From positions 1-53,745 of IMG/VR virus record IMGVR_UViG_3300010400_000009: DNA of 53,745 nucleotides. One strand, 5' to 3'. The notes under the pieces are model-generated. The model did not search any database and was not told the DNA's origin. It saw only the letters and a list, made by a program, of their open reading frames with translations. Of this stretch, positions 3,101 through 35,976 are shown piece after piece. Source of the DNA: a virus. Its lineage: Duplodnaviria; Caudoviricetes. How positions within the stretch are numbered: position 1 is the first letter of the stretch; every line of letters starts with the position of its first letter. A program made the translations under genes and the position numbers.

Positions 3101-3296
3101 CACTTCTAGTGTTGATTTTTACCAACAAACCAGTTTAAGCAACTTTACATTAATAACAAGTATCACAACATCATTAAATATATTAAATGTTGTTCCTACA
3201 ATTAAACATATTAAGACTGCGGCATCGTCTAATCAAGCAGCTTGGTGTGATGTATTTTATACAGAGCGCGGGTTAAATAAATTTAATTTAATCTAG
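21..3296 (+). CDS. Ser/Asn/Leu-rich heptad-repeat fibre/adhesin-like protein; true start at ATG 53592 across the junction (1108 aa)
   Basis: About 870 aa of SSNLSL[VT]-type 7-residue repeats followed by a ~220-aa non-repetitive C-terminal domain. The N-terminus MSLEIRLSVFAEAVGFDVK resembles that of ORF 53094. Confidence 0.7.
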   Translation: MKALNASSALNANNITNVSSSLNIVSSNLKSVSSSLDVTIGEVTAITGLTSSISADLLTTNTSVTTVSTSLSSVSSTIMLLSSGLSNISSNLSDVKLNIDDVSSNLILTSSNLSLLSSNLNITKTNISSISNNLSLTSSNLLLVSSNINDVSSNLSNTSSVLLLVSDNLANGANTTALSSNLSLVSSSLLINNADNSAISNNLKAVSSALNLTSSNLSSVSSTLNKNIADTSFISSDLLALNTNVFLISDNLSSVSSSLSNTSANLSSVSSALSDVIVSSNNIDDVSDTLYAVSSSIIDISSNIGVISSIITTNISAVSDTVNSVISSLSQVSSTLGVTSAGLNAVSNTLSVTNSNLNLISDNISSVSSSLSTSISNINVISSNLSLTSSRLISVSSNISLTSSTLNLISNNVSNLTSSFSIISNNLSSVSDNLILTSSNLSLVSNALSNTNSNIVLISNNLSLTSSNLELTSANLSLTNSNLSLVSSALSSTNSNIGVISNNLSLTSSCLISVSSTLSLTSSNLLLVSASLSGTISNISIISSNLSSVSSSLIVTNTNISTVSNNLSLTSSNLIAISNTVSNTISNIGVISNNLLLTSSNLSLVSAGLVLTNSNLTLVSDNLSLTSSRLNSVSNNLSSTSSNLLLVSSNINNVSNSLSTTISNFTSSITSISGNLSLTSSNLSLTSSTLNTVSGGLSTTNSNLGLTNTSVSAVSGLLSTTISNLGLVSTNLSNTVSNLTLVSNNLSNTNSNLTLVSTSLSTLTSNFTLVSNNLSLTSSGLIGVSSTLNLTSNNLSLVSSNLSKTSSTLILVSNSLSSVSSSLILVSSTISSISSNLSLVSSRLSLVSSNLSSVSSSLSNTSSSLATLTDFAQLRTIRVLDDFLDLNSWTIVTGGLGETATVVNGALTAYSHFGVVELSTSAATGGTVSIEKLGQKTSYDGNNPITVDLVFGFSHVNANHRFLIGYFNSVGTTVASINSGFGIEYNAANSANLQGITSTGTANTFTRASLGIAAATGTVYVMRIVATTSSVDFYQQTSLSNFTLITSITTSLNILNVVPTIKHIKTAASSNQAAWCDVFYTERGLNKFNLI

Positions 3297-4024
3297 CCAC
3301 CAATTTTACTAATTAACCAACTTAAAAAAGCTTCATATAGTAAGCTTTTTTTTTGTTTTGTATTTTCATTTATTGATTTTTCAACTTGTAAAGCTCTATC
3401 TTTTGCTTTAGTTTCTGCCTCTGAAACGCCAACAGGTATAGACTTTAAACCACGTGTTTTATCATATTGAAAGTCTTTTTCCGCTGGTTCTTGATCGGGT
3501 TTGCTTTGTTTGCCATAGCCTCGTTTAATTGCCTGACTTTCATTTAAAGCTATACGCCTACATCTGCAATTATAGCCGCATAATGGGCTGTTTGTTTTCC
3601 AGAAGGGGTCATCTGCTCTTGCAATAAACCCGTTCCAAGCTTTATGCTGCGGTCTTGTTTTGCTATCATTTACAGCAGAATACATATAATAGCCGTATAG
3701 CTCTTCACTTTCTTTTTGACGTTCATATATACCGCTGTTAAATGCGGATTGAATATTAGTGTGATAAACTGTATACAATCTATTTTCAGGCAATATATTT
3801 TTAGATAAAATGCCTTGTTTCCATGTTTCGAAGGTTTCGCCCGTTTCTAAATTTTTTACTAAGCTATCTAAAATATCACTTAAAGTATTTAAGTTTGATA
3901 TACCCGCAACACTAAAGGTAAGTGTTCTATACTCAATATTAGCCTCACTATAGTAAACGTTTGGCGGTATTATTTTACGCTTTTTTGCCCATGCAATAGC
4001 TTCATCAAACGGGAGTGCTTGCAT
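3293..4024 (-). CDS. Head morphogenesis protein, Mu gp30/gpF (SPP1 gp7) family
   Basis: Motifs YSAVNDSKTRPQH and PLCGYNCRCR; lies downstream of the portal. Confidence 0.9.
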   Translation of the reverse strand: MQALPFDEAIAWAKKRKIIPPNVYYSEANIEYRTLTFSVAGISNLNTLSDILDSLVKNLETGETFETWKQGILSKNILPENRLYTVYHTNIQSAFNSGIYERQKESEELYGYYMYSAVNDSKTRPQHKAWNGFIARADDPFWKTNSPLCGYNCRCRRIALNESQAIKRGYGKQSKPDQEPAEKDFQYDKTRGLKSIPVGVSEAETKAKDRALQVEKSINENTKQKKSLLYEAFLSWLISKIGG

Positions 4025-7267: not shown

Positions 7268-7952
7268 CTTTTTTAGCTTTTTTCATTAATTCTAAAAATT
7301 GCTTTTGTTCTTTTCTATTTAATTTACTTATATCAATATTATTTTTTTCTGCTGGTTTTTCAGGCTCAACCTCGCCCGCTTTATCCCCGTATTTTCTAGG
7401 ATTTAGCTTAGCTAGACTAAACTTTAGCGTATCAACAATTAATTTGTCGCAATTCACGCTTAGCGGGTTAGAATTTAGTGCAACTTCTATCATGTCATCG
7501 TGTGCATTATCAAGTTTTTTAGCATAAGCCATACGATACATGTCGGCAAACGCAGTATGTTTAATGCACCATTCCAAGATTGTACTTCTATCGGGGAAGT
7601 GGGGATTTTCTGCACAAACCCATTTTAAAGGGCGTTTTCCGCTATCGCCTATTGCCTGACAAATTTCTTGTGCTAATTCTAAATTATATAAGGTAGGGCG
7701 ACCACCTTTGTTTTTTTCTATTGGTTCAGTAAGATTATTCTTATTTTTTTCATAATTTAAAATCTCGTTATTTTGCGAGCTTTTAAGGGTTTCCATTAGA
7801 TTTTTGAGTGATGAAACCTCGTCTTTGTCTAATTTCTCGCCTTTCCCTGCTGAATTAATTAATTTATAGAGTTTTGCTTGAAGTGCTTTAAATTCTTTGT
7901 CGTGCTTTTCATTTAAAGTTTGCAAACCCTCTGCATATTCTTTTCTATTCAT
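7257..7952 (-). CDS. terS: Terminase small subunit with N-terminal coiled-coil extension
   Basis: GGRPTLY...EICQAI...PDRSTILEW...KLNPRKYGDK; directly upstream of terL. Confidence 0.85.
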   Translation of the reverse strand: MNRKEYAEGLQTLNEKHDKEFKALQAKLYKLINSAGKGEKLDKDEVSSLKNLMETLKSSQNNEILNYEKNKNNLTEPIEKNKGGRPTLYNLELAQEICQAIGDSGKRPLKWVCAENPHFPDRSTILEWCIKHTAFADMYRMAYAKKLDNAHDDMIEVALNSNPLSVNCDKLIVDTLKFSLAKLNPRKYGDKAGEVEPEKPAEKNNIDISKLNRKEQKQFLELMKKAKKDEN

Positions 7953-9225
7953 TAAGTAGCTCCGCTTTCTGCCCTGTTAAATTTTCATATCTTTGTAAAA
8001 TTACATCGCAATATTTCGGGTCTAATTCCATTATATAAGCTTTACGCTCTGTTTTTTGACAAGCTATTAGGGTTGTACCGCTTCCGCCGAATAAATCTAA
8101 TACAATATGATTTTTATTAGAGCAGTCTAAAATTGTGTCTGCAACTAATTCAAGCGGCTTAACAGTAGGGTGCATTCCTGCTTCTTCGGCTCTATCCTTA
8201 TTTTTAAAGCTATTTACAATAGGATAATCCCATACATTAGAGCGCGTACGCCCGAATTGCCCTAATTCAAAGTTGTTTATATGTTTTTCATTACCATTTT
8301 TATAAACAAATATAAGCTCATGCTTACTTCTGTAAAAACTGCCCATACCAAAATTGTCTTTATTCCATATGCACAAATTTTTAAGTTCAGTAAATACTCC
8401 ATTGGCTGCATTAATAACATTATGCATATGCCTCCAATCCATACATATATAATGTATACTGCCGTTTGTACTATGAATAATTAGATTATTAAAAGTATCT
8501 TGTAAAAATTGTGTAAATTCCTTATCAGTCATTTCCCCGCTTGCCATTTTAAACTCGCCCATTTCTTTTATGCTATCAAAACCTTTTAAGCCAGTTCCTA
8601 TATTTGCAATCTTTATATTATAAGGCGGGTCGGTAAATACCATATTAGCCTTACTGCCGTTCATCAATTTATCAACATCAGATAGCAAAATAGAGTTACC
8701 GCACATTAATCTATGATTACCTAGCTTGTATATATCGCCGTATTTAGTTTTAGGCTCAATTGGCGGTTCGGGCGTTTCTTCTTCCTCTTCCATGTTTTCA
8801 GGCATAACTTCATCAGGATTTAGCAACTGCTCAAGCTCTCCTTCATCAAAACCGATTAAACTTAAATCAAAATTTAACTCCTGCAACTGCTCAAGCTCAA
8901 CTTTTAGCAGTTCATTATCCCATGTAGAATTTAAAGCAAGTTTATTGTCGGCTATGATATATGCCTTCTTTTGTGCCTCACTTAAATGCGATAATTCAAT
9001 ACAAGGCACTTTTTTAAGTTTTAACATTTTTGCAGCAGATAGCCTACCATGCCCCGCAATTATGCCATTTTCGCCGTCAATTAATATAGGATTGGTAAAT
9101 CCGAACTCTTTTATTGAGGCGGCTACTTGTGATATTTGCTCATCGCTATGTAAACGTGAATTATTAATATAGCCGATTAAATCAGATACATTTTTATAAA
9201 TTATTTGCTGATTTTCATTTTTCAT
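7945..9225 (-). CDS. ParB-like N-terminal domain fused to an N6/N4 DNA methyltransferase
   Basis: N-terminal NSRLH...FGFTNPIL...IIAGHGRL...IADNKL; C-terminal DPPY, HPTVKP and DLFGGSGT. Confidence 0.92.
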   Translation of the reverse strand: MKNENQQIIYKNVSDLIGYINNSRLHSDEQISQVAASIKEFGFTNPILIDGENGIIAGHGRLSAAKMLKLKKVPCIELSHLSEAQKKAYIIADNKLALNSTWDNELLKVELEQLQELNFDLSLIGFDEGELEQLLNPDEVMPENMEEEEETPEPPIEPKTKYGDIYKLGNHRLMCGNSILLSDVDKLMNGSKANMVFTDPPYNIKIANIGTGLKGFDSIKEMGEFKMASGEMTDKEFTQFLQDTFNNLIIHSTNGSIHYICMDWRHMHNVINAANGVFTELKNLCIWNKDNFGMGSFYRSKHELIFVYKNGNEKHINNFELGQFGRTRSNVWDYPIVNSFKNKDRAEEAGMHPTVKPLELVADTILDCSNKNHIVLDLFGGSGTTLIACQKTERKAYIMELDPKYCDVILQRYENLTGQKAELLNE

Positions 9226-11479: not shown

Positions 11480-12175
11480 TTAAAGCGATTTTTGAGGCGT
11501 TTGCACGCTGAAATTGATTATATTTACTCTACCACCTTTCTTAATTGGTTCATATATAATTTTTAAATCTGTTACGTCGTTGATTTCTGCTATAGCTGGC
11601 TTTAATAGCATATTATTAAAATGTTTAAATTCTGCATAGCTTTTTTTATCTTTTGCTAGAAAATCATAAATAAATTTAAATGATAAATTGAAATTTTTAA
11701 ATTTAAATGTTTTAGATTTTATTAGCTCATACATTGGTAGGCTGTGAATTCCTTGCAACACATTTAATTTATTTAGGTCTAGCTCCGTATATCCATGCTC
11801 AATATTTTTTTTGCCCGCTGAGTTTTTATAATTAATATTTAAAAAATTAATTAGCTGGCTTGACATCTCAATTTGATAGTTGTTTCTAGTAGCTTTAACT
11901 GCTGAAATATAACAACTAAATTCATAATCCTCGTTTAGATTATTTTCTAATGAGAACATCTCATTTTTCATTAAGCCTAAAAATATTTTTTTTATTTGTG
12001 CATGTGAAAAATTAGAAGGGATAAAGTCGCCTAGCTCTTGCCTGCTTAAATTTATAATATTAGAAGTGAATTTTATTTTTGAAAATTCAAAGATTAGCTG
12101 ATTGAATAGTTTGCGTTGCAGGTTAGTTAGATTATTATTTGCAATTATTGCAAAATTAGGCTTATAGATTATCAT
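11480..12175 (-). CDS. repB: Plasmid replication initiator, Rep_3 (RepB) family
   Basis: Motifs LTNLQRKLF, YTELDL...SLPMYELIK and YAEFKHFNNMLLKPAIAEIN...YEPIKKGGRV...F; iterons nearby. Confidence 0.88.
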   Translation of the reverse strand: MIIYKPNFAIIANNNLTNLQRKLFNQLIFEFSKIKFTSNIINLSRQELGDFIPSNFSHAQIKKIFLGLMKNEMFSLENNLNEDYEFSCYISAVKATRNNYQIEMSSQLINFLNINYKNSAGKKNIEHGYTELDLNKLNVLQGIHSLPMYELIKSKTFKFKNFNLSFKFIYDFLAKDKKSYAEFKHFNNMLLKPAIAEINDVTDLKIIYEPIKKGGRVNIINFSVQTPQKSL

Positions 12176-12178
12176 AAA

Positions 12179-12850
12179 TTAATTATTTTTATATTTTGTC
12201 TGAAAATGATTTATTATATTTAATGCCGTTTTTAAATCATCTTTTAAAAGCTGGCTATATTTAACAATACCAAAATAATTATATAATCTATTATAGATTT
12301 TTTTTATAAAAAATGGTAATTCATCATCTGAATTTGCTAACTGGTATGCACGATTTTTAATACCATTTTGTAAAATTAGTTGCTCTTGAGGATTAATTGT
12401 ATCTGCTGTTAAATCCTCTATTTGATTTTCTAATTCATATATTTCATTTTCTAATTGAATTATTATATCGTTACGCCAGTCTATATGATATAGTAGTCTA
12501 TTTCTCTCAGTATCATACATACCAGTTTTTCTTATGGCTGGTAGAACTTCATTGAATACCCAATTTTGAAAATCTATAGCTTCTTTTTTATCAGAACGCA
12601 TAACTAAATAATATAATTGTGGTTCTGTTATAAATGTTGTTTCTTGTGTTCTACCCAGATTGTCAATTATGGGGTAGGTTTTACCGACCCCATCTTTAAA
12701 TCTTAATTTTAATCTAGTACTAATATCATTAATATTTTTAATATTTAAGAAATTGCATATATCTTTTAGACAAAATAATGGGCTGTCAAATGTGCCCAAT
12801 GTACGTAAATTTTTATTTTTAAAAGAAAAAACTTGAAGTTCGTTTATCAT
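12179..12850 (-). CDS. Bro-N family antirepressor with ORF6C-like C-terminus
   Basis: FCLKDIC, DNLGRTQETTFITEPQLY, RSDKKEAIDFQNWVFNEVLPAIRKTGMY. Confidence 0.9.
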   Translation of the reverse strand: MINELQVFSFKNKNLRTLGTFDSPLFCLKDICNFLNIKNINDISTRLKLRFKDGVGKTYPIIDNLGRTQETTFITEPQLYYLVMRSDKKEAIDFQNWVFNEVLPAIRKTGMYDTERNRLLYHIDWRNDIIIQLENEIYELENQIEDLTADTINPQEQLILQNGIKNRAYQLANSDDELPFFIKKIYNRLYNYFGIVKYSQLLKDDLKTALNIINHFQTKYKNN

Positions 12851-14391: not shown

Positions 14392-15028
14392 TGAATGTTT
14401 TTTTTTGTATCCAAAACAACAAATTTTTAACGCTTGGAATATAGAAAGTGCTCCTGATTTTTTTGAAAATAAAGCAGATTTATTATTAAAAAAAATAATT
14501 GAATTAAAAATACCAGCAAAATATTTAAAAGATATTACGCATAAATTACAAGAAAATTATGTAAAATATCCGCCTTCATTACTACAACTAATAGATTTAA
14601 TGAAGCCAGTGCATAATTACGAACGTTTATTTAGAACCACCCAGCAAAACGCCATAATTATACAACAATATTTAGACGGCTTAAATAGTCATAGTTTAGA
14701 TAAACTTTGTAAATTTTCTTATAATATTTATGAGAAAATGAAAAGCTTAAAAGGTATAAACATTATATCTAAACAATGGTGTAATGTAAACTGCGGGCAG
14801 ATGGATATAGAATTCAAAAATTGTTCTGATGAGTTTATTGAAGTTTTTAATTTAGTAGATTTTATACAAGAATGCGAACTTTTGCCTATTCCTGCACCAA
14901 TAATCAAAATTGATATTATTAAATCTAAGGCAGAATTAGAGGAAGAGGATAGGATAAATAAGGAAAACATAAAAATATTTAAAGAAGTAATGCAAAGCTT
15001 GTGCGAAAAATTTACTGTAAATACTTGA
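14342..15028 (+). CDS. Putative helicase loader (P-like)
   Basis: Follows the O-like gene; KYPPSLLQLI motif. Confidence 0.45.
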   Translation: MKMTMEIYLQALTKIVNECFFLYPKQQIFNAWNIESAPDFFENKADLLLKKIIELKIPAKYLKDITHKLQENYVKYPPSLLQLIDLMKPVHNYERLFRTTQQNAIIIQQYLDGLNSHSLDKLCKFSYNIYEKMKSLKGINIISKQWCNVNCGQMDIEFKNCSDEFIEVFNLVDFIQECELLPIPAPIIKIDIIKSKAELEEEDRINKENIKIFKEVMQSLCEKFTVNT

Positions 15029-15053
15029 CAAATATTCTACAAATATGTAGAAT
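15025..15053 (+). promoter_or_regulatory. Strong sigma70 promoter with overlapping inverted-repeat operator for the RNA/Ro60 operon
   Basis: TTGACA-17-TAGAAT; ATTCTACA-aata-TGTAGAAT at 15034-15053. Confidence 0.8.
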
Positions 15054-15060
15054 TATAAAT

Positions 15061-15129
15061 GTGATGTGCTGAAGCTTGCAGTTACTTATCTTGAAAATAA
15101 AACCAACTGTAAGCGATTGTTGCCGTTAT
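15061..15129 (+). ncRNA. Y-RNA-like unit 1
   Basis: Basal stem, internal loop UGCUGAA/GAUUGUUGC, 10-bp stem GCUUGCAGUU/AACUGUAAGC and conserved AGUUACUUA. Confidence 0.72.
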
Positions 15130-15133
15130 GTGA

Positions 15134-15198
15134 TTATGCGTGTTGAGTTATACAGTTACTTAATGCTATCTAGTCTGTATACATTTGTTACCGCATAA
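15134..15198 (+). ncRNA. Y-RNA-like unit 2
   Basis: Stem UUAUGCG/CGCAUAA, loop UGUUGA/AUUUGUUAC, stem AUACAG/CUGUAU and AGUUACUUA. Confidence 0.72.
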
Positions 15199-15208
15199 AT
15201 GATGATGT

Positions 15209-15273
15209 TTGCGTGCTGAAAAAAATAGTTACTTAATATGGTTTTAAAACACTATTTTTGCTTATTGCCGCAA
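15209..15273 (+). ncRNA. Y-RNA-like unit 3
   Basis: Stem UUGCG/CGCAA, loop UGCUGAA/GCUUAUUGC, stem AAAAAUAG/CUAUUUUU and AGUUACUUA. Confidence 0.72.
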
Positions 15274-15279
15274 TTAAAA

Positions 15280-15403
15280 TGAGTGGTGCAGTAAAAAGTT
15301 ACTTATACAATTGGACTGTTTACTCGGAGGTTCAATCCCTCTGCCATATTTTAAAATATGGTTCTTGGTTAGAGAGTTGTTACTTTTTACGCTTGTTCCC
15401 TCA
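15280..15403 (+). ncRNA. YrlA-like Y RNA (unit 4) with circularly permuted tRNA-mimic domain
   Basis: Stems UGAG/CUCA and GUAAAAAG/CUUUUUAC plus AGUUACUUA enclose a T-arm (GGAGG-UUCAAUC-CCUCU), a closed acceptor-like hairpin (15343-15362) and a D-like arm (UCU-UGGUU-AGA). Confidence 0.78.
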
Positions 15404-15408
15404 ACGTT

Positions 15409-15484
15409 AGCGGGGTAGAGAAGCAGTATCTCGTCGGTCTCATAAGCCGAAGGTCGCTGGTGCAATCCCAGCCCGCCGCTACCA
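15409..15484 (+). tRNA. tRNA-Met(CAT), initiator-like and atypical
   Basis: fMet-like body; anticodon arm UCGGU-CUCAUAA-GCCGA; T-loop UGCAAUC; encoded ACCA; extra G in the 3' acceptor strand. Confidence 0.85.
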
Positions 15485-15485
15485 T

Positions 15486-15561
15486 GGTTCTATAGTGTTA
15501 ATGGTTAGCACGTAGCATTGTCAATGCTATAGTGTGGGTTCGAACCCCACTAGAACCGCCA
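15486..15561 (+). tRNA. tRNA-Asp(GTC)
   Basis: Acceptor GGUUCUA/UAGAACC, G73, CCA; anticodon arm UAGCA-UUGUCAA-UGCUA; T-loop UUCGAAC. Confidence 0.92.
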
Positions 15562-15563
15562 TT

Positions 15564-15643
15564 GCTAACTTAGCTTAACAGTAAAGCAACTTTTGGCTTC
15601 GGCTTTGAGAAGTATATAGGTGCAATTCCTTTAGTTAGCTCCA
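15564..15643 (+). tRNA. tRNA-like RNA with Gly-like acceptor end and no canonical anticodon loop
   Basis: Acceptor GCUAACU/AGUUAGC, U73, CCA; D-stem GCUU/AAGC; extended anticodon arm capped by GGC-UUCG-GCU. Confidence 0.7.
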
Positions 15644-15665
15644 ACAATCACAGCATATTATCCAA

Positions 15666-15681
15666 TGTTTCACGTGAAACA
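15666..15681. promoter_or_regulatory. parS: parS consensus site 1
   Basis: TGTTTCACGTGAAACA, intergenic. Confidence 0.85.
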
Positions 15682-15707
15682 ATTTAACATTTAAGGATTA
15701 AATTAAT

Positions 15708-17027
15708 ATGCAAACTAATACCAAAAATCAAAATACAAACCATGAAGGCACAGTCATTCAAGTTATACCTCCATTTATTGAATTAAAACGGGCGGTAATG
15801 ACAACTTTATTAGGCGAAAATACTTTTTATGAAAGCGGTCAATCTGTAAAGGCTAGAATTAGCGAGTTAGTGCATAAATGTGAATTTGACGCAGTGCTAG
15901 ACTTAGCTATTGAAAGCAAAGAGCAAGCGAATTTAAGACATGCACCACTTTTAATATTAAAAGAATTAGCTAAACATGCAGGCTTAAAAGATTTTAACAA
16001 TGCCAAAGCATACCGCAATGCAATATTTAGGGTTTGCACACGTGCCGACGACTTAACCGAACTATTGGCTATGTACTGGGAAGGCGGACGTAAACCTATA
16101 GCTAAACAATTAAAATTAGGTTTAGCTCAAGCCTTCACAAAATTTAATGAATATGCATTAGGTAAATACAATCGTGATAAAGCAGTAAAATTAAAAGATG
16201 TTTTATTTATGGTTCATGCTAAACCAAAAGATACAGCACAGGCTGAATTATGGAAGCGTCTTATTGATAATAAACTCGCAACGCCTGATACATGGGAAGT
16301 TGCTTTGTCTGCTGGAAAAGATAAAAAAGAAACGTGGACAAGATTATTAAATGAAAATAAGCTAGGCTATTTAGCAGTACTTAGAAATTTAAGAAATATG
16401 CGAGATGTTGGCGTAGATGATAATTTAATAAAAGATAAATTAATAAATTCAAAAGGAAAAGAAAAAATACTACCGCACCAGTTTATAGCGGCCGCTTGTG
16501 TAAATCCTAGTCTTGAAAATTCTATAAATGACGCTTTACTTGAAAATTTATCTAATCATGAAAAATTAAAAGGTAAAACAATTATTTTAGTTGATGTATC
16601 GGGTTCTATGGAAAGCAAACTATCGGAAAAATCGGAAATGCGACTAATTGAAGCAGGTGCGGGAGTTGCTGCAATATGCCGTGAAATTTGCGAACAGGTT
16701 GAAATATTTGCATTTAGTAATGATGTTAGAGAAGTTCCTGCACGTCAAGGCATGGCTTTAATTGATAAATTAAAATCTATGTTAGGCGGCGGTACAAGTT
16801 TAGGCAAAGCAATAGATTTTTTGAATACTAAAGATTATGATAGAATTATTGTAATTACCGACGAACAGTCAAGCGACAAAGTGCAAGCTCCTAAAGGCAA
16901 GGGTTATATTGTAAATATTGCCCCTTATAAAATGCAGATAGGTTTCGGGGAATGGATTAGAATTAATGGGTTTAGTCAAAACTTAATTAAATATATTTTA
17001 GAACACGAGAAAGAAGGTATAGTATAG
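15708..17027 (+). CDS. rsr: Ro60/Rsr (TROVE plus vWA domain) RNA-binding protein
   Basis: NHEG, LLGENTFYESG, NLRHAP, RADDLTELLA, KFNEYALGKY, TPDTWEVALS, LRNLRN; MIDAS DVSGS and ITDEQ. Confidence 0.93.
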   Translation: MQTNTKNQNTNHEGTVIQVIPPFIELKRAVMTTLLGENTFYESGQSVKARISELVHKCEFDAVLDLAIESKEQANLRHAPLLILKELAKHAGLKDFNNAKAYRNAIFRVCTRADDLTELLAMYWEGGRKPIAKQLKLGLAQAFTKFNEYALGKYNRDKAVKLKDVLFMVHAKPKDTAQAELWKRLIDNKLATPDTWEVALSAGKDKKETWTRLLNENKLGYLAVLRNLRNMRDVGVDDNLIKDKLINSKGKEKILPHQFIAAACVNPSLENSINDALLENLSNHEKLKGKTIILVDVSGSMESKLSEKSEMRLIEAGAGVAAICREICEQVEIFAFSNDVREVPARQGMALIDKLKSMLGGGTSLGKAIDFLNTKDYDRIIVITDEQSSDKVQAPKGKGYIVNIAPYKMQIGFGEWIRINGFSQNLIKYILEHEKEGIV

Positions 17028-17272
17028 AACCTAACGCATTAGATGATATTAGCTCTAATGCACAACTAGAGCTAATTAAGTTCATCAAAGCCGAGCGGCA
17101 AAAGCAAGATATTAATCCGCACAAACTAAGTTTTTTAGCTGGCGGAATTAATATTTATCGCTTTGAAAATAACACACATAATCATAAATTAAAGGATATT
17201 ATTAAAATTCTTAATATTTTAGGCTATACTTTGGATATAAAACATTTAAAAAAAAAGGTAAATCATGGATAA
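17024..17272 (+). CDS. XRE-family HTH regulator, probable ATA start (not in ORF track)
   Basis: Open frame reads ...LIKFIKAERQKQDINPHKLSFLAGGINIYRFENNTHNHKLKDIIKILNILGYTL... There is an in-frame TAA at 16988 and no ATG/GTG/TTG ahead of the HTH. GAAGG lies 6 nt before an ATA that overlaps the Ro60 stop. Confidence 0.65.
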   Translation: MEPNALDDISSNAQLELIKFIKAERQKQDINPHKLSFLAGGINIYRFENNTHNHKLKDIIKILNILGYTLDIKHLKKKVNHG

Positions 17273-17495
17273 AATTATAAAATATAGCATGTTATTAGTA
17301 TCAGTAATTGTTACTGGTTTAATATTTTTGCTCGGGTTTGCTGTTTATGATGAGATGACTTTTAAAGATAAAACAGATAAATTCATTACGGCGAATAACT
17401 GCAAAGGCACAAATAACGCAGTTGGTACACGCTATACTGTGCAGCAGGAATTTATTTGTAAGGATTATCAGTCTTTTTGGTTAAGAGTTAAATAA
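17265..17495 (+). CDS. Small membrane-anchored protein with two Cys
   Basis: N-terminal TM segment; RBS AAGG. Confidence 0.65.
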   Translation: MDKIIKYSMLLVSVIVTGLIFLLGFAVYDEMTFKDKTDKFITANNCKGTNNAVGTRYTVQQEFICKDYQSFWLRVK

Positions 17496-24851: not shown

Positions 24852-25796
24852 ATGATAATACTTAGTTTGTTTGACGGCATATCATGTGCTAGGGTTGCTT
24901 TAGAGCGTGCAAAAATCCCAATTACCGCATATTATGCAAGCGAGATAGATAAGTACGCTTTGCAGGTATCAGAGAAAAATTACCCTGATATTAAAAGGTT
25001 AGGCGATGTTACCAAAATATTAGCAGGCGATATAAATACTTTATTTAAACCTGATTTATTAATCGGCGGTTCGCCTTGTCAAAATTTAAGTGTGGCGGGT
25101 AATGGCATGGGACTTTTAGGCGAAAAATCAATACTATTTTATGAATATGTACGTATTTTACTTTTCACTAAACCAAAGTATTTTATTTTGGAAAATGTAG
25201 CCTCTATGAAGCCAGCAGATAAAAATAAAATATCGGAAGTACTAGGGATTGAAGCCATAATGTTAGACGCAAGTTTAGTTTCGGCACAGAGCCGTAAAAG
25301 GCTGTTCTGGGTTGGTATTTTAGAGGGCGATAAATATATTAAAGCTGATATTTCTATTCCAAAAGATAGAAATATTTATTTAAAAGATATAATCGAAAGC
25401 GGGGAGGTTGATAGGTTAAAATCTTATTGCTTAGACGCTTCTTATTATAAAGGAGCTAGCTGGAAACAATATAAAGAAAGGGGGAGCAGGCAGCTTGTAA
25501 AATTAGGGCATGTAAATAATTCAGATAGCCAAGGTAACCGTATTTACGATTTTAGCGGTAAAAGTGCAACACTACAATCTGCTTCGGGTGGATTAGGTGC
25601 AAAATGCGGATTATACACAGATAGTACAAGCAATGATAATATTATACGCAAACTAACGCCTACAGAATGCGAAACCCTAATGGGATTAGAGAAGGGATAT
25701 ACAAGCGGTATAAGCGATACCCAGCGTTATAAATGCATTGGTAACGCTTTTCATGTAGATATTATAAGTCATATTTTAAAGGAGCTAATTAAATGA
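24852..25796 (+). CDS. DNA (cytosine-5) methyltransferase
   Basis: LSLFDG, GGSPCQ, ENV, QSRKR, RKLTPTEC, GNA. Confidence 0.95.
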   Translation: MIILSLFDGISCARVALERAKIPITAYYASEIDKYALQVSEKNYPDIKRLGDVTKILAGDINTLFKPDLLIGGSPCQNLSVAGNGMGLLGEKSILFYEYVRILLFTKPKYFILENVASMKPADKNKISEVLGIEAIMLDASLVSAQSRKRLFWVGILEGDKYIKADISIPKDRNIYLKDIIESGEVDRLKSYCLDASYYKGASWKQYKERGSRQLVKLGHVNNSDSQGNRIYDFSGKSATLQSASGGLGAKCGLYTDSTSNDNIIRKLTPTECETLMGLEKGYTSGISDTQRYKCIGNAFHVDIISHILKELIK

Positions 25797-35418: not shown

Positions 35419-35976
35419 CTAAGCCAAAGTATCATTATAATAATTATCAATTATGTTTTTTAATTTTAATCTTAGCTTGGTGTTTGCTTTTGTGAGAGCT
35501 ATATATAATTCCTTGACTTCTGCCATATATACTTTTGCAAACCCTTTGTCGTACTTAATAATACTGTAAGCATTAGCTATTAAATCCGCTACTTTTATTG
35601 TCTGCACTTTATCGCATTGAGTAGCTAAAAAATCCCTATCTATTTTTTTCCTTACTTCCCTATTCCCGTCTTCAAGCTTTGCCTTTTCAGTTAAGCCGAT
35701 TACCATTCTTGCAACTTCCTCACCTAAAAAGGCTTCAATAATATTTATTTCTATTTTTGTATCCTCTATTACATCATGCAACCAAGCTGCGCATAGCATT
35801 TCTTTTGTATGCTCTACAGTTTCAACAATAGCCGCTACTTCTAAACAATGTCTATAATACGGCTCACCTGTATATTTGCGTTTTTGCCCTATTGCTTCAT
35901 GTGCAGTAATTGCCATGATTTTAGCAAGCCTAATTTCTTGTTCTAATTGTGAATACTCAAGAGAATTGTAAGACAT
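35419..35976 (-). CDS. Stand-alone HD-domain (p)ppGpp-hydrolase-like protein (small alarmone hydrolase/Mesh1 type)
   Basis: AH...QKRKYTGEPYYRH, AAWLHDVIEDT, IKVADLIAN. Confidence 0.85.
   Translation of the reverse strand: MSYNSLEYSQLEQEIRLAKIMAITAHEAIGQKRKYTGEPYYRHCLEVAAIVETVEHTKEMLCAAWLHDVIEDTKIEINIIEAFLGEEVARMVIGLTEKAKLEDGNREVRKKIDRDFLATQCDKVQTIKVADLIANAYSIIKYDKGFAKVYMAEVKELYIALTKANTKLRLKLKNIIDNYYNDTLA

What the first reader, a model, noticed from the sequence alone, without database searches (positions are those of the whole stretch)
15086..15327. Y-unit inserts resemble tRNA anticodon loops (possible nuclease decoys)
Seen: unit 1 can form UUAU-CUUGAAA-AUAA, a 7-nt loop matching the usual tRNA-Ser(UGA) anticodon loop. 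Unit 4 has GGA-CUGUUUA, one base from the tRNA-Asn(GUU) loop CUGUUAA. Unit 3 has GUUUUAAAAC, loosely Lys(UUU)- or Leu(UAA)-like. Unit 2 gives no clear match. Inference: Ro60-stabilised RNAs may display anticodon loops as decoys or inhibitors of anticodon nucleases. Short AT-rich matches could be chance.
Basis: inference. Interest (0 to 1): 0.75.

Follow-up and report, generated by a model that had tools for sequence, protein, structure and literature searches.

The report
Anticodon-arm mimics on phage Y RNAs
Small RNAs encoded beside a phage Ro60 gene carry hairpins shaped like tRNA anticodon arms, a feature shared by many related phage and bacterial Y RNAs that may distract or recruit enzymes that recognise tRNA.

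Summary
The window is a complete 53.7-kb tailed-phage genome. One promoter drives four Y-RNA units (15061-15403), tRNA-Met, tRNA-Asp, a tRNA-like element and a Ro60 (TROVE+vWA) gene.

Its readings of units 3 and 4 are not, but both units have a different 7-nt-loop hairpin at the same place.

The decisive evidence comes from homologues. In 291 distinct Y units next to Ro60 genes of other phages and bacteria, a hairpin follows the conserved YUAC motif. It has a 7-nt YU-NNN-R-N loop in 81 units (28%; shuffles 3.3%; mirrored pattern 2). It has CU-NNN-AA in 50 units (17%; shuffles 0.3%; mirrored 0). Loop sizes 5, 6, 8 and 9 are at background.

In the tRNA-like units the hairpin lies 5 nt before the T arm, where tRNA positions 27-43 lie. 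ARAGORN reads 19 such units as tRNAs.

This hairpin is the 'V' stem-loop of published YrlA RNAs. I found no paper that describes it as anticodon-like.

The resemblance is real. The nuclease-decoy function is plausible and already speculated for YrlA, but untested.

The parts
15025..15053 (+). Sigma-70-like promoter: TTGACA, 17-nt spacer, TAGAAT
   Evidence: 11 of 12 consensus matches, the best site in 14800-17400. The only terminator-like site before Ro60 is the T arm of unit 4 (15325-15343). A consensus match only, not shown to function.
15061..15128 (+). Y unit 1 (short type): Ro-binding stem, GUUACUUA motif and apical hairpin
   Evidence: Covariance model R1, built from 52 short units of other phages, scores it 45.5 bits, E 1.4e-10. 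MFE fold z -2.78.
15086..15100 (+). Unit 1 anticodon-arm-like hairpin UUAU-CUUGAAA-AUAA (C32 U33 UGA A37 A38)
   Evidence: The same loop with different stems occurs in 8 other loci (L003, L016, L160, L173, L174, L188, L214 and others). Chance 0.3%. The stem is not predicted by the MFE fold.
15135..15196 (+). Y unit 2 (short type); no canonical 7-nt-loop hairpin
   Evidence: R1 38.2 bits, E 1.6e-08. No 7-nt hairpin found. It contains AUGCUAU, one base from the AUGCUAA loop that recurs in other loci.
15208..15273 (+). Y unit 3 (short type) with hairpin UUAA-UAUGGUU-UUAA at 15233-15247
   Evidence: R1 54.4 bits, E 4.1e-13. The hairpin is in the MFE structure. The loop lacks U33 and R37, and the hairpin is not beyond chance.
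15280..15403 (+). Y unit 4 (tRNA-like, YrlA-like): Y stem GUAAAAAGU (15291-15299) with ACUUUUUAC (15382-15390)
   Evidence: MFE z -2.39. No Rfam YrlA (RF02553) match at E up to 10.
15305..15321 (+). Unit 4 anticodon-arm-like hairpin AUACA-AUUGGAC-UGUUU, followed by the 4-nt linker ACUC
   Evidence: 4 of 5 pairs, linker 4.. Resembles the AUUGGGA and UUUGGGA loops of L003 and L018.
15326..15342 (+). Unit 4 T arm GGAGG-UUCAAUC-CCUCU
   Evidence: Aligned with 102 other T arms in A4.
15344..15361 (+). Unit 4 closed acceptor-like hairpin: CCAUAUU-UUAA-AAUAUGG, 7 bp
15364..15376 (+). Unit 4 reduced D-arm-like hairpin CUU-GGUUAGA-GAG
   Evidence: Read from the sequence. Inference only.
15408..15479 (+). 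tRNA-Met (CAU)
   Evidence: ARAGORN. Rfam tRNA 45 bits.
15486..15561 (+). tRNA-Asp (GUC)
   Evidence: ARAGORN. Rfam tRNA 65.1 bits.
15564..15643 (+). tRNA-like element with an enlarged anticodon region and an encoded CCA
   Evidence: Rfam tRNA 39.9 bits with 16 nt where the model has 11. Not called by ARAGORN. MFE z 0.04.
15708..17027 (+). Ro60/Rsr orthologue (439 aa)
   Evidence: Pfam TROVE 3.1e-15 and vWA_Ro60 2e-07. PDB 9KOP/9L5Y phage Ro60, E 5.7e-22 over residues 12-428.

Best explanation
The 'inserts' are the apical modules of tRNA-derived Y RNAs. Each unit is a Ro60-binding stem: a 5' GYG..A(A/G) motif and a 3' UUGUUCC-like motif, joined by a stem that shows covariation. The conserved YUAC motif follows the stem.

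Directly after YUAC comes a hairpin that copies a tRNA anticodon arm. It has a 3-5 bp stem and a 7-nt loop with C/U32, U33, a variable triplet, A37 and A38. In the long, YrlA-like units this hairpin is followed by a 5-nt variable loop, a T arm, a closed acceptor stem and a D arm. The RNA is therefore a permuted tRNA interrupted at position 26/27 by the Ro60-binding stem. In the short units only the anticodon-arm mimic is kept.

Shown: the architecture, its enrichment over chance, its tRNA-like geometry, and the membership of window units 1-3 in this family.

Inferred: the whole array, the tRNAs and Ro60 are made as one transcript from the promoter at 15025-15053 and cut apart by tRNA-processing enzymes. 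The Ro60-bound RNAs then present anticodon-arm look-alikes to proteins that recognise tRNA anticodon loops.

The most likely role in a phage is to compete with tRNAs for host anticodon nucleases. Within that reading, tethering such proteins to Ro60 is the other possibility.
For: - **Context.** The Ro60 gene is immediately downstream on the same strand. There is a single strong promoter, and the only terminator-like site before Ro60 is the T arm of unit 4.
- **Family membership.** A covariance model of the Y stem alone was built from 52 units of other phages; 12 of its 13 pairs show compensatory changes. It finds window units 3, 1 and 2 at E 4e-13, 1.4e-10 and 1.6e-08. Nothing else in the 53.7 kb scores below E 0.29.
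- **Loop size.** The best hairpin after YUAC has a 7-nt loop in 85 of 291 distinct units, against 8.9% in shuffles; binomial p 3e-23.
- **Loop composition.** Those 85 loops have C32 0.65, U33 0.76, A37 0.74 and A38 0.65. Shuffles give 0.23-0.35. The 137 real tRNAs of the same loci give 0.81, 0.96, 0.77 and 0.79.
- **Pattern test.** A YU-NNN-R-N hairpin is present in 81 of 291 units, against 3.3% in shuffles. CU-NNN-AA is present in 50 of 291, against 0.3%. The analogous patterns at loop sizes 5, 6, 8 and 9 occur in 14, 22, 15 and 15 of 291, against about 3%. The mirrored patterns occur in 2 and 0 of 291.
- **Subsets.** The signal holds in viral short units (35 of 129), viral T-type (25 of 69), bacterial short (9 of 42) and bacterial T-type (12 of 51). 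It also holds per sequence cluster: 79 and 50 of 267.
- **Geometry.** In 122 T-type units, a 5-bp/7-nt hairpin with at least 4 of 5 pairs peaks at a 5-nt linker before the T stem. That is 41%, against 9.5% in shuffles and 7-24% at other linker lengths; loops of 6 or 8 nt show no peak at that linker.
- **Pairing in an unselected alignment.** In an ungapped alignment of 103 T-type units, the helix has 60.6% of cells paired. Shuffles give 45.3 +/- 1.8 (0 of 500 as high) and slid partners give 39-53%. The covariation score is 0.437 against 0.225.
- **Independent program.** ARAGORN uses this hairpin as the anticodon arm in 19 calls that overlap Y units. GenBank annotates one such unit of phage CcrColossus as tRNA-Gln.
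- **Literature.** This hairpin is the 'V' stem-loop, and YUAY is said to begin the V loop (PMC4201824, passages). A competitive-inhibitor role for YrlA against an anticodon nuclease has been speculated (PMC7790460, passages). A Ro60-like phage protein was reported to counter a defence system (PMC11482910, passages).
Against: - Only 28% of units carry a canonical anticodon-like loop. About 40% of T-type units do not pair in the tRNA register. The mimic is therefore common but not universal.
- In the window only unit 1 is a clean case. Its 4-bp A-U stem is not predicted by RNAfold. Unit 2 has none, and unit 3's loop lacks U33 and R37.
- There are no expression or processing data. The only sequencing runs that hold at least half of the region's words are three soil metagenome DNA runs.
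- No anticodon nuclease, RtcB or RNA ligase is encoded in the phage, and the host is unknown.
- The crystallised Salmonella YrlA lacks this hairpin, and its Y stem takes the place of the anticodon stem (bioRxiv 10.1101/312249, passages). In 3D the hairpin may therefore project like a long variable arm.
- The triplets are skewed to a few types: UGA 12, GUU 12, GCU 10, UGU 7 and UGG 6 loci. That could reflect shared ancestry.
- My detector needs the TA[CT][TA]T[CA] anchor and found no unit upstream of Ro60 in 55 of 183 loci.
Confidence: 0.55

Rival explanations
1. Evolutionary relic. Y RNAs arose from tandem tRNA genes, and the hairpin is simply the leftover anticodon arm of the first tRNA. It is kept only as a structural spacer, and nothing reads its loop.
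For: The dimeric-tRNA origin model is in print (bioRxiv 10.1101/312249, discussion passages). The segment from YUAC to the T arm is collinear with tRNA positions 27-65. ARAGORN can fold the 5' part of a unit into a full cloverleaf. Many units (72%) have lost the canonical loop.
Against: Short units that have lost the T, D and acceptor arms still keep CU-NNN-AA loops: 23 of 129 viral short units, against 0.4% in shuffles. The same loop, CUUGAAA, sits on different stems in different loci: UUAU/AUAA, UUCA/UGAA, UUCGA/UUGAA, UUCU/AGAA. Positions 32, 33, 37 and 38 are conserved while 34-36 vary. That is the pattern expected for a loop under selection for shape.
Confidence: 0.2
2. U-turn loops for RNA-RNA recognition. 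The 7-nt YU-NNN-R loops present three to five bases for fast kissing contacts with a target RNA, as loops of antisense RNAs do. They would guide the Ro60 particle to particular RNAs rather than to proteins.
For: The loops have the U-turn signature, U33 followed by exposed bases. The triplets vary between units of one array: 16 arrays have two or more such loops, and none repeats a triplet. That YUNR U-turn loops are used by antisense RNAs is recalled knowledge, not checked here.
Against: The no-repeat result has no power: 1.0 repeat is expected by chance, P 0.34. The conservation of C32, A37 and A38 and the exact tRNA geometry go beyond what a kissing loop needs. No target was sought or found.
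Confidence: 0.1
3. Precursors of working tRNAs. The tRNA-like units are permuted tRNA genes. Opening the acceptor loop, removing the Y stem and joining 26 to 27 would yield a decoding tRNA with the displayed anticodon.
For: T-type units contain every tRNA part in permuted order. M. smegmatis YrlA is cut by RNase P and gains CCA (PMC4201824, passages). Processing of YrlA towards canonical tRNAs has been raised as a possibility (bioRxiv 10.1101/312249).
Against: Short units have no T, D or acceptor arms and cannot become tRNAs, yet they carry the same loops. No bacterial enzyme for the needed excision is known (same preprint). This phage has no RtcB or RNA ligase. Window unit 4 has a 3-bp D stem and A32.
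Confidence: 0.05
4. Chance in AT-rich sequence. The window's matches are accidents, and the family signal is an artefact of my detector.
For: In the window, units 3 and 4 are within chance: 58% of shuffles of unit 3 give some 7-nt hairpin, and 7% of shuffles of unit 4 give its relaxed pattern. The anchor motif supplies the UUC that starts the stem.
Against: Shuffles kept the anchor fixed and still gave 3.3% and 0.3%. The mirrored pattern, which has the same composition and the same hairpins, is nearly absent: 2 and 0 of 291. Other loop sizes are at background. The T-arm-anchored test does not use my hairpin search.
Confidence: 0.02

Closest known systems
YrlA (Y RNA-like A) of Salmonella Typhimurium and other bacteria and phages (Rfam RF02553; Chen et al. 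2014, PMC4201824)
   Same: It is encoded next to a Ro60 orthologue. It has a 5'/3' stem with a GNCGAA-like Ro60 motif, a conserved YUAY, a T arm, a closed acceptor stem and a D arm. Many members have a 'V' stem-loop just before the T arm. T-type units of related loci match RF02553 at E 2e-08 to 7e-04, which is 34-50 bits against a gathering score of 69.
   Different: Window unit 4 gives no RF02553 match. The published description treats V as a less conserved variable arm, and the structure paper says YrlA lacks an anticodon loop. Here V has the size, loop signature and spacing of an anticodon arm.
[quoted passage not shown]
   Same: They are second, shorter Ro60-bound RNAs encoded in the same cluster and cut from one precursor (passages).
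   Different: Window units 1-3 and 129 viral short units carry the YUAC motif. In 35 of those 129, an anticodon-like heptaloop follows it. I did not compare them with the YrlB sequence itself.
Deinococcus radiodurans Yrn1
   Same: The authors modelled a potential 'anticodon arm' with a 5-bp stem in this Y RNA (PMC4201824).
   Different: Its loop has 6 nt rather than 7, and its arms are arranged in a different order. The authors judged that it evolved independently.
Circularly permuted tRNA genes of algae and an archaeon (as cited in bioRxiv 10.1101/312249)
   Same: The order of parts is the same: the 3' half comes first, then a closed acceptor stem, then the 5' half.
   Different: Those are processed into working tRNAs. 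Here the break lies at 26/27 and is occupied by a Ro60-binding stem. No processing is shown.
Phage tRNAs with altered anticodon loops that evade tRNA-cleaving defences (van den Berg et al. 2023, seen only as a reference in PMC11482910)
   Same: They are phage-encoded RNA answers to attack on anticodon loops. They lie in tRNA clusters like the one here.
   Different: Those are decoding tRNAs that replace cleaved ones. The units here cannot decode and would act, if at all, by competition.

Membership tests
Bacterial/phage Y RNA (YrlA/YrlB kind) | Encoded within a few kb of a Ro60 orthologue on the same strand | tested here: met
   The units at 15061-15403 lie 305 nt or more upstream of Ro60 (15708-17027) on the + strand.
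Bacterial/phage Y RNA (YrlA/YrlB kind) | 5' and 3' ends form a stem that carries the Ro60 motif (GNCGAAN0-1G-like) opposite a conserved 3' strand | tested here: met
   Model R1, in which 12 of 13 stem pairs show compensatory changes, hits units 1-3 at E 1.6e-08 or better. The window's motif variants are GUGCUGAAG, GUGUUGAG, GUGCUGAAA and GGUGCAGUAA.
Bacterial/phage Y RNA (YrlA/YrlB kind) | Bound and stabilised by Ro60 in cells | not testable with these tools
   No RNA or binding data are available. No run with informative RNA coverage was found.
YrlA (Rfam RF02553) | tRNA-like domain with conserved T and D arms and a closed acceptor stem; a match to the family model | tested here: inconclusive
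   Unit 4 has a T arm, a 7-bp closed acceptor hairpin and a 3-bp D-like hairpin. It gives no RF02553 match at E up to 10. Relatives match below the gathering score.
tRNA anticodon arm (as a structural mimic) | Stem of about 5 bp closed by a 7-nt loop | tested here: met
   Unit 1 has 4 bp and a 7-nt loop. Unit 4 has 4 of 5 pairs and a 7-nt loop. Unit 3 has 4 bp and a 7-nt loop. Unit 2 has none. In the family, 85 of 291 units have a 7-nt loop, against 8.9% in shuffles.
tRNA anticodon arm (as a structural mimic) | Loop signature: Y32, U33, purine 37 | tested here: met
   Unit 1 meets it fully (CUUGAAA). Unit 4 has U33 and A37 but A32. Unit 3 fails. In the family, 81 of 291 units meet it, against 3.3% in shuffles and 2 for the mirrored pattern.
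tRNA anticodon arm (as a structural mimic) | Placed 4-5 nt (the variable loop) before the T stem | tested here: met
   The unit 4 linker is 4 nt. In the family the peak is at 5 nt: 41% against 9.5%. The helix is supported in the alignment of 103 unselected units.
Functional tRNA | Open acceptor end with CCA, continuous D-anticodon connection, aminoacylation and decoding | tested here: not met
   The acceptor stem is closed by a UUAA loop and the chain is interrupted at 26/27 by the Y stem. ARAGORN and Rfam tRNA do not call unit 4.
Decoy or inhibitor of anticodon nucleases | Binds or is cleaved by an anticodon nuclease and protects tRNA or phage growth | not testable with these tools
   Only speculation in print (PMC7790460). 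No nuclease or repair gene was found in the phage.

The most novel reading that the evidence does not exclude
Ro60 particles of phages and bacteria carry exchangeable panels of anticodon-stem-loop baits. Each Y unit would display one tRNA look-alike that soaks up, or reports, a tRNA-cleaving immune or toxin nuclease. The fast-changing triplet would track the nuclease's specificity. This would be an RNA-based counter-defence against tRNA-targeting immunity, and it would give a function to the long-unexplained tRNA mimicry of bacterial Y RNAs.
Probability: 0.2. Interest if true: 0.85.

Novelty: new variant of a known kind. Interest (0 to 1): 0.68.

Why it matters
Bacterial and phage Y RNAs are known to mimic tRNA, but the partner of the mimic and the reason for it are open questions. 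The published view is that YrlA lacks an anticodon loop.

This work shows that the hairpin next to the T arm is a statistically clear anticodon-arm copy. It also shows that short Y RNAs keep only this part. That has three consequences:
- It narrows the search for effectors to proteins that read anticodon loops: nucleases, modification enzymes and synthetase anticodon-binding domains.
- It gives direct sequence support to the idea that Y RNAs came from tandem tRNAs.
- It makes the competitive-inhibitor idea testable with defined loop mutants in cultured systems that carry such arrays, such as crAss001 and CcrColossus.

It also warns annotators that tRNA finders call some Y RNAs as tRNAs.

Tried and rejected
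- **Pattern scan of viral contigs.** A scan for GTTACTTC-gap-TTGTTCC returned 115 stretches. Only 1 of them (L122) had a Ro60 gene in the fetched DNA, so the rest were treated as chance and not used.
- **First unit detector.** It was too loose: it hit coding regions and missed window unit 3. It was replaced.
- **DNA searches of phage and plasmid collections.** They found only tRNA-sized matches and a short Ro60 stretch in crAss phages. There is no close relative.
- **Rfam.** It gave no Y RNA match in the window.
- **Alignment A3.** It covers 42 of 59 T-type units and was not used for pair counts. Two stem registers, UUCGC/GCGRG and CUUCA/UGACG, share columns there. I used the T-arm-anchored ungapped alignment A4 instead.
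- **Test for repeated triplets within arrays.** No power: 0 observed, 1.0 expected.
- **Units downstream of Ro60.** There were 29 distinct candidates. Of these, 6 had a YU-NNN-R-N loop (3.2% expected) and 3 met the strict pattern. Many candidates lie in coding DNA and are probably false, so this is only weak replication.
- **Comparison of near-identical orthologous units.** Several differ in the triplet: CUUGGGA/CUUGAGA, CUUUUAA/CUUUGGA, and crAss001 CUUCUAA against its relatives' CUUUUAA. There are too few independent pairs to claim faster change there.
- **Sequencing runs.** The three runs that hold at least half of the region's words are soil metagenome DNA runs, and two of them may be the source of this DNA.
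- **Repair genes.** RtcB and RNA-ligase families were not found in the phage. Pfam and PHROGs scans covered 32 distinct ORFs, out of 74 in my list plus one alternative ORF call. They showed no nuclease of the anticodon kind.
- **Tools and papers not available.** The Annual Review on bacterial Ro60 (PMC10870794) is not held.
- **Basis of the 'not in print' claim.** It rests on searches, and on passages of the papers read.
Full report
**What the window is.** The window is a whole virus record of 53,745 bases with direct terminal repeats and 31.6% G+C. It encodes terminase subunits, a portal protein, a Mu-F-like head protein, SSB, DNA methylases and a Rep3-type initiator. It is a tailed phage. 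Only soil metagenome runs hold at least half of the searched region's words.

**The locus.**
- The ORF at 15708-17027 is a Ro60 orthologue. It matches Pfam TROVE (3.1e-15) and vWA_Ro60 (2e-07). It also matches the solved Thermus phage Ro60 (9KOP/9L5Y) at E 5.7e-22 over residues 12-428.
- Upstream lies a near-consensus promoter, TTGACA-17-TAGAAT, at 15025-15053.
- Four repeated units follow at 15061-15403. After them come tRNA-Met (CAU), tRNA-Asp (GUC) and a third tRNA-like element.
- The only terminator-like site before Ro60 is the T arm of unit 4. A single transcript is likely, but this is inference.

**The units are Y RNAs.**
- Each unit has a 5' GYG...GA(A) motif, a stem, the motif AGUUACUUA, a variable insert, the return strand and a 3' UUGUUGCC-like motif.
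- Ro60 genes of 183 other loci were collected. By locus number, 103 are from viral contigs and 80 from bacterial genomes, mostly Acidobacteriota MAGs.
- In 128 of them, a detector found 313 units of the same build upstream of Ro60, with the consensus GGUGAAG...GGUUACUUC...CGCUUGUUCC.
- The motifs correspond to the GNCGAAN0-1G Ro60 motif and the conserved YUAY described for YrlA RNAs (PMC4201824, passages).
- I aligned 52 of 73 short units from other phages, chosen by hand. I left out near-duplicates and units with long inserts. The alignment gave a consensus Y stem in which 12 of 13 pairs show compensatory changes.
- The covariance model built from that alignment contains no apical hairpin. 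It finds window units 3, 1 and 2 at E 4.1e-13, 1.4e-10 and 1.6e-08. Nothing else in the window scores below E 0.29.
- Unit 4 has a long insert with a T arm, a closed 7-bp acceptor-like hairpin and a small D-like hairpin. This is the YrlA plan.
- Unit 4 gives no Rfam YrlA match. T-type units of six relatives match RF02553 at 34-50 bits, below the gathering score of 69.

- Unit 1 is as described: UUAU-CUUGAAA-AUAA at 15086-15100.
- Unit 4's GGA-CUGUUUA has no 3' partner strand. The hairpin at the homologous place is AUACA-AUUGGAC-UGUUU at 15305-15321.
- Unit 3's GUUUUAAAAC would close a 4-nt loop. The MFE fold instead has UUAA-UAUGGUU-UUAA at 15233-15247.
- Unit 2 has no 7-nt-loop hairpin.
- Judged on the window alone, only unit 1 is unlikely by chance: 0.3% for CU-NNN-AA and 1.0% for YU-NNN-R-N in 5000 shuffles. 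RNAfold does not form its all-A-U stem.

**The test across homologues.** The 313 units collapsed to 291 distinct regions after YUAC. Units identical in that region were merged, and regions under 12 nt were dropped.
1. The lowest-energy simple hairpin starting within 9 nt of the motif has a 7-nt loop in 85 of 291 regions (29%). Shuffles that keep the motif give 8.9%; binomial p 3e-23.
2. Those 85 loops have C32 0.65, U33 0.76, A37 0.74 and A38 0.65, with variable positions 34-36. Shuffled loops show 0.23-0.35. The 137 ARAGORN tRNAs of the same loci show 0.81, 0.96, 0.77 and 0.79.
3. A hairpin of at least 3 bp with a YU-NNN-R-N loop exists in 81 of 291 regions, against 3.3% in shuffles. CU-NNN-AA exists in 50 of 291, against 0.3%. 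The analogous patterns on loops of 5, 6, 8 or 9 nt occur in 14, 22, 15 and 15 of 291, against about 3%.
4. The mirrored patterns test composition and hairpin potential together. They occur in 2 and 0 of 291.
5. The signal holds in each subset: viral short 35 of 129, viral T-type 25 of 69, bacterial short 9 of 42, bacterial T-type 12 of 51. It also holds per sequence cluster: 79 and 50 of 267.

**The hairpin sits where an anticodon arm sits.**
- In 122 distinct T-type units I asked, counting back from the T stem, where a 5-bp/7-nt hairpin fits. The fraction with at least 4 of 5 pairs peaks at a 5-nt linker: 41%, against 9.5% in shuffles and 7-24% at other linkers. There is no peak at that linker for 6- or 8-nt loops.
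- Five nucleotides is the length of the variable loop of ordinary tRNAs, and the linker often reads AGGUC.
- I made an ungapped alignment of 103 T-type units, selected only for having a T arm and at least 20 nt before it. The helix there has 60.6% of cells paired. Shuffles give 45.3 +/- 1.8 (0 of 500 as high) and slid partners give 39-53%. The covariation score is 0.437 against 0.225.
- About 40% of these units do not pair in this register, so the family is mixed.
- In 44 of the 57 units that fit, the stem begins at or one base before the end of YUAC.
- ARAGORN treats the hairpin as the anticodon arm in 19 tRNA calls that overlap Y units, for example Pro(UGG), Ser(GCU) and Thr(UGU).
- The GenBank record of phage CcrColossus annotates one of its six units as tRNA-Gln.

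**Relation to what is published.**
- This hairpin is the 'V' stem-loop of Chen et al. 2014. [quoted passage not shown]
- The structure paper states that YrlA lacks the anticodon loop and that the Y stem takes the place of the anticodon stem. It also offers a dimeric-tRNA origin.
- My data fit that origin. From YUAC onward the RNA is collinear with tRNA positions 27-65.
- Four full-text searches, and the passages read in seven papers, did not yield a description of V as anticodon-like.
- Supplements, which may show many V loops, and the 2020 Annual Review were not available.

**Function.** Nothing here tests function.
- The conserved loop frame with a variable triplet, kept even in short units that lost the rest of the tRNA, argues for selection on an anticodon-loop shape.
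- Hughes et al. 2020 showed that the Salmonella rsr-yrlBA-rtcBA operon responds to tRNAs cut in the anticodon loop. They speculated that YrlA could be a competitive inhibitor of the nuclease.
- A preprint reports that a Ro60-like protein of phage Bas63 counters a defence system.
- A Thermus phage Ro60 with its Y RNAs binds host PNPase.
- I therefore rank first a protein-facing role, as competitor or tether for anticodon-loop-reading proteins. I put the specific nuclease-decoy reading at about 0.2-0.3.
- The phage itself has no RtcB or RNA ligase, and no anticodon-type nuclease was recognised among the ORFs scanned.
- The most frequent triplets are UGA, GUU, GCU, UGU and UGG. Near-identical orthologues sometimes differ just there. 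That is suggestive, but the pairs are too few.

**Verdict.** The window's four units belong to a large family of Ro60-linked Y RNAs whose apical hairpin copies the tRNA anticodon arm. This is a new, well-supported feature of a known RNA class. Its purpose remains to be shown.

Noticed in passing
window 15564-15643 (+): A third tRNA-like element follows tRNA-Asp. It has acceptor, D and T arms and an encoded CCA. Its anticodon region is about 8 nt too long and can form a small UUCG-capped hairpin. Rfam tRNA scores it 39.9 bits, but ARAGORN does not call it. It may be a processing signal or another effector module.
   Followed up: partly
L300 (Caulobacter phage CcrColossus) 967-1034; 19 ARAGORN calls in related loci: tRNA finders and a GenBank record annotate tRNA-like Y units as real tRNAs, for example tRNA-Gln in CcrColossus. 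They use the V hairpin as the anticodon arm. Phage tRNA counts near Ro60 genes may be inflated.
   Followed up: partly
L299 (Bacteroides phage crAss001) about 3220-3810: Five candidate Y units match the anchor pattern in the unannotated 900-bp gap downstream, not upstream, of the TROVE gene gp96. One has AUAAU-CUUCUAA-AUUAU. Uncultured relatives (L026-L028) have CUUUUAA on the same stem.
   Followed up: partly
window 35419-35976 (-): A 185-aa protein has an HD_4 domain (9.6e-17), the kind found in small alarmone hydrolases. It could be a separate counter-defence gene.
   Followed up: no
window 7945-9225 (-) and 24852-25796 (+): The phage encodes a ParB-like domain fused to a DNA methyltransferase, and also a C-5 cytosine methylase. 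Both are probably anti-restriction functions.
   Followed up: no
window 11480-12850 (-): A Rep3-type replication initiator lies next to a Bro-N/ORF6C protein. That is a plasmid-like replication module inside a tailed phage.
   Followed up: no
all units, motif at window 15082-15088, 15156-15162, 15229-15235, 15299-15305: The near-invariant GUUACUUC (GUUACUUA in the window) follows the upper Y stem. From memory, it looks like the UUAUC-containing motif that follows the upper stem of animal Y RNAs. This was not tested.
   Followed up: no
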